From NCBI RefSeq assembly GCF_003334305.1, contig NZ_QOWS01000035.1: 31,024 nucleotides of DNA. One strand, 5' to 3'. Numbering within the stretch: position 1 is the stretch's first letter; the number at the start of each line of letters is the position of its first letter. The notes under the pieces are model-generated. The model made no database searches, was not told the DNA's origin, and worked only from the letters and a program-made list of their open reading frames with translations. This document shows positions 11,760 to 11,957 of this stretch, in pieces. This stretch comes from Escherichia coli. GTDB lineage: Bacteria > Pseudomonadota > Gammaproteobacteria > Enterobacterales > Enterobacteriaceae. The position numbers and the translations under genes were made by a program.

Positions 11760-11785
11760 GCCCCATTTGCGGGGCTAATTTCTTG
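11760..11785 (+). terminator. candidate intrinsic terminator downstream of rsd
   Basis: GCCCC-atttgc-GGGGC hairpin followed by TAATTTCTTG, 35 nt after the rsd stop. Short stem and interrupted T-tract; could instead belong to the thiC promoter region. Confidence 0.3.
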
Positions 11786-11957
11786 TCGGAGTGCCTTAAC
11801 TGGCTGAGACCGTTTATTCGGGATCCGCGGAACCTGATCAGGCTAATACCTGCGAAGGGAACAAGAGTTAATCTGCTATCGCATCGCCTTTGCGGCGATC
11901 GTCTCTTGCTTCATCCGTCGTCTGACAAGCCACGTCCTTAACTTTTTGGAATGAGCT
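11780..11957 (+). promoter_or_regulatory. TPP (thiamine pyrophosphate) riboswitch / thi-box leader of thiC
   Basis: Conserved THI-element motifs in order: CTGAGA (11804-11809), GGAACCTGATCAGGCTAATACC, GCGAAGGGAACA. A downstream hairpin (atcgcatcgcc...ggcgatcg) is a plausible expression platform before the thiC start. Confidence 0.85.

What the first reader, a model, noticed from the sequence alone, without database searches (positions are those of the whole stretch)
11760..11957. TPP riboswitch in the thiC leader
The hallmark CUGAGA box and the downstream pyrimidine-sensing helix motifs are present and correctly ordered. A GC-rich hairpin lies upstream (11760-11775) and a second stem (atcgcc...ggcgat, about 11885-11905) precedes the weak SD ggaatgag, consistent with control at both transcription and translation. 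This is the only RNA-level metabolite sensor I see in the window.
Basis: partly seen in the sequence, partly recalled or inferred. Interest (0 to 1): 0.4.

Follow-up and report, generated by a model that had tools for sequence, protein, structure and literature searches.

The report
Known E. coli thiC TPP riboswitch

Summary
The window is E. coli chromosome (purHD … rsd | thiCEFSGH … rpoBC). A full-length TPP riboswitch aptamer (Rfam RF00059) lies at 11777-11877 (+), scoring 74.8 bits against a gathering score of 54.3 (E = 3e-13). RefSeq annotates it at the same coordinates. The 301-base query around it (11700-12000) matches 5421 of 5426 complete E. coli genomes at 95% identity or more. The leader differs from K-12 MG1655 by two bases in a hairpin loop, so the published K-12 experiments apply.

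Mapped onto published numbering, +1 is 11776 and AUG is 11958. TPP binding closes P1. That frees GACAAGC (11924-11930) to pair with the start codon region and hide the SD and AUG. It also exposes a rut site, giving Rho-dependent termination at the pause at 11959/11962. Without TPP, an anti-P1 helix (11782-11790 with 11921-11929) keeps the switch on.

- The hairpin at 11760-11775 lies upstream of +1 and is the rsd terminator.
- The stem at 11883-11899 is a variable hairpin with no U tract, not an intrinsic terminator.
- The motifs downstream of CUGAGA form the pyrophosphate arm, not the pyrimidine arm.

Verdict: real, already known, low interest.

The parts
11249..11725 (+). rsd coding sequence (context, upstream gene)
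   Evidence: ORF list; RefSeq annotation of an identical genome.
11760..11785 (+). rsd terminator-like hairpin (GCCCC/GGGGC, 11760-11775) plus a U-rich tail (11776-11785) that overlaps the first bases of the thiC leader. It is not part of the switch.
   Evidence: Terminator scan; fold -10.6 kcal/mol. A hairpin of differing sequence sits at the same place in most of the 38 relatives that carry the TTAACGnGTA block downstream of rsd. It lies upstream of the published +1.
11776..11776 (+). Published thiC transcript 5' end (+1, by primer extension)
   Evidence: It is the only offset in 11600-11899 at which all 10 residues named in PMC5234074 (C7, G16, G31, A138, C158, U160, U184, U186, C187, U188) have the right base.
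11777..11877 (+). TPP riboswitch aptamer (P1-P5); P1 is 11782-11786 with 11861-11865; extended P1 is 11776-11780 with 11866-11870
   Evidence: Rfam RF00059, 74.8 bits, E 3.3e-13, model 1-105. RefSeq 'TPP riboswitch' at identical coordinates. Aptamer pairs are 100% paired in 54 leaders.
11804..11809 (+). CUGAGA box; G31 (11806) is the residue whose G31C mutation abolishes TPP control
   Evidence: Sequence; numbering; mutation data in PMC5234074.
11833..11858 (+). P4/P5 arm (CCUGAUCAGGCUAAUACCUGCGAAGG), the pyrophosphate-binding arm
   Evidence: Rfam alignment; invariant stems in 54 leaders. The arm naming is from my own knowledge.
11875..11915 (+). nt 100-140, the region published as rut-like (14 C and 9 G of 41); a later paper places the rut site at U93-U104
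   Evidence: Composition; PMC5234074; PMC11143247.
11883..11899 (+).
   Evidence: Fold -8.6 kcal/mol. A hairpin at this position in all 54 leaders, with different sequences. 5 of its 6 pairs change on both sides. The two differences from MG1655 fall in its loop. No U tract follows, and the terminator scan does not list it.
11903..11912 (+). CUCUUGCUUC: in the TPP-free fold it pairs with the 3' strand of P1 (nt 84-92, 11859-11867), enclosing the variable hairpin
   Evidence: MFE fold. Relatives carry either CAAGAG/CUCUUG or GAGUAAU/AUUACUC, a shifted but equivalent pairing.
11921..11929 (+). anti-P1 3' strand (UCUGACAAG, nt 146-154); pairs with 11782-11790 when TPP is absent
   Evidence: Present in the unconstrained MFE. 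The six core pairs never change identity, apart from three U-G cells, in 54 leaders. Published mutational and probing support in PMC5234074.
11924..11937 (+). 5' strand of the SD/AUG-sequestering stem (GACAAGCCA..UCC, nt 149-162), including the anti-SD UCC at 11935-11937
   Evidence: P1-enforced fold; 94.6% of cells paired and 3 pairs changed on both sides in 54 leaders.
11948..11962 (+). 3' strand of the sequestering stem: SD GGAAUGAG (11948-11955), AUG (11958-11960), up to C187
   Evidence: GCTATGTC is present in 100 of 102 related leaders. The RBS probe at nt 172-181 is protected by TPP (PMC5234074).
11959..11963 (+). Pause and Rho-dependent termination site (U184, C187; in vivo pause at U188)
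   Evidence: PMC5234074, mapped.
11958..13853 (+). thiC, first gene of thiCEFSGH (operon 11958-17322)
   Evidence: ORF list; annotation.

Best explanation
This is the E. coli thiC thiamine-pyrophosphate (TPP) riboswitch, the cis-acting leader of the thiCEFSGH mRNA.

The aptamer (11777-11877) binds TPP while the RNA is being made. Binding locks helix P1 (11782-11786 with 11861-11865, extended by 11776-11780 with 11866-11870).

With P1 closed, the sequence UCUGACAAGCC (11921-11931) cannot pair with the 5' strand of P1. It pairs instead with GCUAUGUC, and UCC (11935-11937) pairs with GGA of the SD. The ribosome-binding site and the AUG are then buried, so translation is off.

In the same state the C-rich linker is more exposed to Rho, and the pause at the start codon (C187 = 11962) lasts longer. 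Rho therefore terminates at 11959/11962, and transcription is off too.

Without TPP, the anti-P1 helix (11782-11790 with 11921-11929) forms when the polymerase pauses at 11962. A second helix forms between the P1 3' strand and CUCUUGCUUC (11903-11912). Together they break the aptamer, free the SD and AUG, and fold up the linker.

Shown here: the aptamer match, identity to E. coli, the mapping of coordinates, the two mutually exclusive folds, and conservation or covariation of the stems.

Taken from the literature on a sequence that differs at two loop bases: TPP binding, the Rho and NusG dependence, the pauses, and the loss of control in G31C.
For: - Aptamer: RF00059 full-length match above threshold, E 3.3e-13, and the only riboswitch hit in the window.
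- Identity: the 301-base query 11700-12000 matches 5421 of 5426 complete E. coli genomes at 95% identity or more, with 'riboswitch | thiC | rsd' annotated beneath. RefSeq places a TPP riboswitch at 11777-11877.
- Transfer of experiments: only two differences from MG1655 across 11700-11975, both in a hairpin loop.
- Numbering: a unique mapping of 10 published residues gives +1 = 11776.
- Folding: the unconstrained MFE (-53.8 kcal/mol) contains anti-P1. The P1-enforced fold (-46.6 kcal/mol) buries GGA, AUG and C187.
- Nascent lengths: P1 is in the MFE at 100 and 124 nt, is replaced by other pairings at 138-144 nt, and anti-P1 appears from 158 nt.
- Context: 111 of 120 related aptamers from other Enterobacterales, Aeromonas and others have thiC directly downstream.
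- Stems across species: in 54 leaders the OFF-state structure is 89% paired, against 28-47% when the partners are slid. The sequestering stem has 3 pairs changed on both sides.
- Partner sequence: GCTATGTC is kept in 100 of 102 leaders.
- Published experiments: PMC5234074, PMC11143247, PMC11487190.
Against: Nothing found here contradicts it. There are limits.

- The core of P1 and anti-P1 hardly varies in my sample (only three U-G cells), so covariation neither supports nor opposes those two helices. My search pattern also fixed much of the aptamer.
- The 199-nt leader does not fold more stably than shuffles (z = -0.8). That is usual for a switch with competing folds.
- The position of the rut site differs between two papers of the same laboratory: nt 100-140 against U93-U104.
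- The published +1 rests on primer extension and sits exactly at the 3' foot of a stable hairpin.
Confidence: 0.97

Rival explanations
1. A TPP riboswitch that controls transcription through an intrinsic terminator, using the stems at 11760-11775 and 11883-11899.
For: Both stems exist and are GC-rich. Many Gram-positive TPP riboswitches, for example B. subtilis thiC, work this way (PMC11143247).
Against: The first stem is upstream of +1 and of the aptamer. The second is followed by CGUCUCUUGCUUC, not a U run, and the terminator scan finds nothing between the aptamer and the AUG. None of the 54 related leaders has a U run after that hairpin. Published termination is at 11959/11962 and needs Rho, is enhanced by NusG, and is relieved by bicyclomycin (PMC5234074).
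Confidence: 0.02
2. A translation-only riboswitch, in which the fall in mRNA level is a secondary effect of untranslated mRNA being degraded or terminated inside thiC.
For: The SD and AUG are clearly sequestered in the P1-closed fold. E. coli thiM behaves roughly this way (PMC11487190).
Against: A transcriptional fusion with only 10 thiC codons is still repressed, and in vitro Rho termination occurs at U184/C187 without ribosomes. The authors conclude that Rho, not the RNase E degradosome, controls mRNA level; the rne-131 test appears in their Fig. 1d legend, whose result text I did not read (PMC5234074). The Rho-binding site lies within the riboswitch.
Confidence: 0.03
3. A chance match to a short motif, with no functional element.
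For: CUGAGA alone occurs 11 times in the window. Leader folding energy is not exceptional.
Against: E = 3.3e-13 for the full model. The element is conserved in front of thiC across orders of Gammaproteobacteria.
Confidence: 0.001

Closest known systems
E. coli K-12 thiC TPP riboswitch (Winkler, Nahvi & Breaker 2002; Chauvier et al. 2017, PMC5234074)
   Same: It is the same locus. The sequence across 11700-11975 is identical except for two loop bases at 11889-11890, with the same flanking genes rsd and thiC and the same numbering of every named residue.
   Different: Only a strain-level polymorphism (UU against CC) in the loop of the nt 108-124 hairpin.
E. coli thiM and thiB (tbpA) TPP riboswitches
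   Same: Same aptamer family. All three sequester the SD/AUG through a P1 versus anti-P1 competition and have a pause near the start codon (PMC5234074; PMC11487190).
   Different: thiC carries its Rho-binding site inside the leader and terminates at the start codon. thiM needs at least 34 codons of coding sequence for the mRNA-level effect. The thiC platform is longer (about 90 nt) and contains a variable hairpin.
B. subtilis-type TPP riboswitches with intrinsic terminators
   Same: Same aptamer family and the same ligand.
   Different: Those use a terminator/antiterminator hairpin followed by a U tract. No such element exists between 11878 and 11957.

Membership tests
TPP riboswitch (Rfam RF00059, THI element) | Covariance-model score at or above the curated gathering score over the whole aptamer | tested here: met
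   74.8 bits against 54.3, model positions 1-105 of 105, E 3.3e-13.
TPP riboswitch (Rfam RF00059, THI element) | Conserved ligand-pocket sequences: CUGAGA after the first hairpin, and ACCUGAUC...UAAU...GCG in P4/P5 | tested here: met
   CUGAGA at 11804-11809; CCUGAUCAGGCUAAUACCUGCG at 11833-11854. Both are invariant in 54 related leaders, though the search pattern fixed part of them.
TPP riboswitch (Rfam RF00059, THI element) | Helices P1 to P5 around a three-way junction | tested here: met
   All helices align, with four non-standard pairs, all at the tips of the two short hairpins. Aptamer pairs are 100% standard in 54 leaders, but nearly all are invariant, so there is no covariation signal.
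TPP riboswitch (Rfam RF00059, THI element) | Lies in the 5' leader, on the same strand, of a thiamine synthesis or transport gene | tested here: met
   81 nt upstream of thiC, first gene of thiCEFSGH. thiC is downstream in 111 of 120 related loci.
TPP riboswitch (Rfam RF00059, THI element) | Binds TPP directly and changes gene expression in response | not testable with these tools
   Shown experimentally for the K-12 sequence, which differs at two loop bases: Kswitch about 0.4 uM, and G31C abolishes control (PMC5234074).
Translational expression platform (SD/AUG sequestration by a P1 versus anti-P1 switch) | Two mutually exclusive folds, one of which buries the SD and the start codon | tested here: met
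   The MFE contains anti-P1 with the AUG unpaired and only the GGA of the SD still paired. The P1-enforced fold pairs nt 149-162 with 173-187. The sequestering stem is 94.6% paired, with 3 pairs changed on both sides. The anti-P1 core is conserved but hardly varies.
Rho-dependent terminator controlled by a riboswitch | C-rich, G-poor, weakly structured rut region upstream of a pause site; dependence on Rho | tested here: inconclusive
   nt 100-140 has 14 C against 9 G, only a mild bias, and contains a hairpin. In the P1-closed fold nt 125-140 are largely unpaired, while in the anti-P1 fold nt 128-137 pair with the P1 3' strand. Dependence on Rho, NusG and bicyclomycin is known only from PMC5234074.
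Intrinsic (Rho-independent) terminator as expression platform | GC-rich hairpin followed directly by a U run, located between the aptamer and the start codon | tested here: not met
   The scan of 11600-12100 reports no such site between 11878 and 11957. The hairpin at 11883-11899 is followed by CGUCUCUU.

The most novel reading that the evidence does not exclude
The thiC leader may begin about 19 nt further upstream than published, near 11757. The start would come from a promoter-like block, TTGAGT-N17-TAATTT (11722-11750), that overlaps the rsd stop codon. This block keeps a fixed 17-nt spacing in about 36 Enterobacteriaceae leaders. If so, the rsd terminator hairpin (11760-11775) would be transcribed as a 5' stem-loop of the thiC mRNA. 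The primer-extension '+1' at 11776, exactly one base 3' of that hairpin and an unusual U start, would then be a reverse-transcriptase stop or a processing site.
Probability: 0.2. Interest if true: 0.2.

Novelty: already known. Interest (0 to 1): 0.06.

Why it matters
It matters only as a correct annotation. The riboswitch explains how thiamine pyrophosphate shuts off the thiCEFSGH operon, and it is a model for co-transcriptional ligand sensing coupled to Rho termination. Nothing in this window changes that picture.

The useful outcome of the check is the corrected anatomy:
- where the leader starts;
- which helices switch;
- that the transcriptional arm is Rho-dependent rather than an intrinsic terminator.

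Tried and rejected
- Sigma-70 promoter scan of 11600-12100: no site passed the tool's threshold, so the promoter of the mapped +1 could not be assigned.
- Searching the paper library for MG1655 coordinates of the candidate 5' ends (4196281, 4196299-4196301 and neighbours): only irrelevant hits.
- Searching for thiCEFSGH promoter or TSS papers: only the paper already in hand. Its supplement holds no text for the primer-extension panel.
- The first alignment (A1) cut off the P1 5' strand in leaders with a longer first hairpin. I rebuilt it as A2.
- My first attempt to enforce P1 used pairs that were off by one. It is corrected, with the same conclusion.
- Column-wise covariation for anti-P1 and for the helix between the P1 3' strand and CUCUUG gave no signal. 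The first hardly varies. The second shifts register between lineages, so I judged it per sequence instead; its mean z of -1.8 against shuffles is only modest support.
- The crystal-structure paper for the arm nomenclature (PMC4689313) is not held.
- An intrinsic terminator and a chance match were both considered and rejected (see the rival explanations).

Full report
**What the window is.** A 301-base query around the finding (11700-12000) matches 5421 of 5426 complete E. coli genomes at 95% identity or more. The features annotated beneath it are 'riboswitch | thiC | rsd'. The whole window is collinear with E. coli NZ_CP027462.1: purH, purD, zraRS, zraP, yjaH, hupA, yjaG, nfi, hemE, nudC on one side. 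Then come rsd (11249-11725, +), a RefSeq 'TPP riboswitch' at 11777-11877 (+) and thiCEFSGH (11958-17322, +), followed by yjaZ, rpoC, rpoB, rplL, rplJ, rplA, rplK, nusG, secE and tuf on the minus strand.

**Checking the observation.** A scan of the window against all Rfam families gives a full-length TPP aptamer match (RF00059, model 1-105) at 11777-11877 (+). It scores 74.8 bits against a gathering score of 54.3, E = 3.3e-13. A permissive scan (E <= 1) adds no other riboswitch, so 'the only metabolite sensor in the window' holds. The CUGAGA box is at 11804-11809. Alone it proves nothing, since the hexamer occurs 11 times in the window.
- GCCCC/GGGGC at 11760-11775;
- AUCGCC/GGCGAU at 11883-11899, slightly upstream of the 'about 11885-11905' given.

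GGAAUGAG is at 11948-11955, two bases before the ATG at 11958.

**Tying the sequence to the experiments.** Chauvier et al. 2017 (PMC5234074) name ten residues of the E. coli thiC leader: C7, G16, G31, A138, C158, U160, U184, U186, C187 and U188. Only one offset between 11600 and 11899 gives the right base at all ten: +1 = 11776. The AUG is then nt 183-185. The window differs from MG1655 across 11700-11975 at only two adjacent bases, 11889-11890 (UU against CC), in the loop of the 11883-11899 hairpin and without indels. The published results can therefore be transferred. They are:
- TPP represses both translational and transcriptional fusions.
- G31C (11806, the G of CUGAGA) abolishes control.
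- Bicyclomycin relieves the transcriptional repression.
- In vitro, Rho (enhanced by NusG) terminates at U184/C187 (11959/11962) when TPP is present.
- The polymerase pauses at A138, C158 and C187 (11913, 11933, 11962).
- An anti-P1 stem using nt 146-154 (11921-11929) locks the RNA in a form that does not bind TPP.
- nt 100-140 was proposed as the rut region.

Later papers from the same laboratory repeat this model. They place the rut site at U93-U104 and note that the Rho site lies inside the riboswitch.

**Anatomy seen here.** The unconstrained minimum-energy fold of nt 1-200 (-53.8 kcal/mol) is the TPP-free form. It has three defining helices:
- C7-A15 (11782-11790) pair with U146-G154 (11921-11929).
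- The P1 3' strand (nt 84-92) pairs with CUCUUGCUUC (nt 128-137), enclosing the 108-124 hairpin.
- nt 51-56 pair with the conserved UCCGUCG (nt 139-145).

In this fold the AUG is unpaired, although GGA of the SD still pairs with UCC.

Enforcing P1 gives -46.6 kcal/mol. In that fold nt 149-162 (GACAAGCCA..UCC) pair with nt 173-187 (GGA.UG.GCU.AUGUC). This buries the SD, the AUG and C187 and leaves nt 125-140 largely unpaired. The roughly 7 kcal/mol gap is of a size that nanomolar ligand binding could plausibly cover; this last point is my inference.

Folding nascent lengths shows P1 in the MFE at 100 and 124 nt. Other pairings replace it at 138-144 nt, and anti-P1 appears from 158 nt onward. 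This fits the published narrow sensing window.

**Relatives.** Of these, 111 have thiC directly downstream on the same strand. In 54 leaders of similar length (alignment A2), the TPP-bound structure is 89% paired, against 28-47% when the partners are slid by 1-3 columns. The sequestering stem is 94.6% paired with three pairs changed on both sides.

The aptamer helices and the core of P1/anti-P1 hardly vary. That is strong conservation but gives no covariation evidence, and my pattern fixed part of the aptamer. GACAAGC and its partner GCUAUGUC are conserved as far as Aeromonas: GCTATGTC is present in 100 of 102 leaders.

None of them is followed by a U run. Five of its six pairs change on both sides. 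It is a conserved structural spacer, not a terminator.

The 3' flank of that hairpin pairs with the P1 3' strand in two interchangeable ways, CAAGAG/CUCUUG or GAGUAAU/AUUACUC.

**The upstream hairpin.** It starts 35 nt after the rsd stop codon, ends one base before the published +1, and is followed by UAAUUUCUU. The terminator scan reports it. In most of the 38 relatives that carry the TTAACGnGTA block downstream of rsd, a GC-rich hairpin of different sequence sits at the same place, followed by a T-rich run that merges into P1. Examples are GCCCCG/CGGGGC, CCCCTC/GAGGGG, CCTCGCC/GGCGGGG, GTCCGTA/TACGGGC and TCCCACC/GGTGGGA. It is best read as the rsd terminator. Being 5' of the aptamer, it cannot be a TPP-controlled element.

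**An unresolved detail.** No sigma-70 site passes the scan. The -10 position implied by +1 = 11776 falls in the variable hairpin loop. A conserved TTGAGT-N17-TAATTT block lies further upstream (11722-11750) and would predict a start near 11757.

Distant relatives without the hairpin have a clear TTGTAG-N16/17-TATACT ending 9-12 nt before P1. That agrees with a start a few bases before P1, as published. I could not find independent 5'-end data. The published functional constructs used a pBAD promoter, so they do not bear on this question.

**Verdict.** The finding is real and correctly named. It is also already annotated in RefSeq and among the most thoroughly studied riboswitches.
- The hairpin at 11760-11775 is the rsd terminator.
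- The stem at 11883-11899 is a variable platform hairpin.
- Transcriptional control is Rho-dependent at the start-codon pause, and translational control works through the GACAAGC/GCUAUGUC and UCC/GGA sequestering stem in competition with anti-P1.

Novelty: already known. Interest: low.

Noticed in passing
Related loci L002, L013, L023, L053, L066, L077, L083, L102, L108 (e.g. L013:1809-1938): In 9 of 111 thiC leaders (Citrobacter, Kosakonia, Phytobacter, some Enterobacter), a palindromic element of about 110-130 nt sits in the terminal loop of the aptamer hairpin just before CUGAGA. L077 carries two tandem copies. The insertion moves the P1 5' strand to 128-273 nt upstream of CUGAGA and folds as a long extension of that hairpin. 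The element matches a dispersed, unannotated intergenic repeat with a median of 8 places per E. coli genome. It resembles the ERIC/IRU consensus as I remember it. Whether these riboswitches still work is unknown.
   Followed up: partly
window 11722-11750: TTGAGT-N17-TAATTT overlaps the rsd stop codon. It is conserved with fixed spacing in about 36 Enterobacteriaceae, upstream of the rsd terminator hairpin. It looks like a promoter that would start transcription near 11757, which disagrees with the published +1 at 11776.
   Followed up: partly
window 11776-11785: The U-rich tail of the rsd terminator and the first bases of the thiC leader (extended P1 and P1 5' strand, UAAUUUCUUG) are the same nucleotides. 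The two units abut with no spacer.
   Followed up: partly
window 11889-11890: The only differences from MG1655 in the leader (TT here, CC in K-12) lie in the loop of the 11883-11899 hairpin.
   Followed up: yes
window 17570-17730 (+): sroH sRNA, a full-length Rfam match of 201 bits, between thiH and yjaZ.
   Followed up: no
window 27066-27127 (-): A match to Rfam 'Pseudomonas sRNA P26' (74.5 bits against a gathering score of 36) in the rplL-rpoB intergenic spacer. This is a structured element of the rplJL-rpoBC transcript rather than a free sRNA gene.
   Followed up: no
window 53-284 (-) and 28005-28415 (-): Sub-threshold Rfam hits. Ysr197 scores 117.5 bits against a gathering score of 167, upstream of purH. 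Several weak hits (Arrc08, V_AS5, S15 leader) fall in the rplJ leader region.
   Followed up: no
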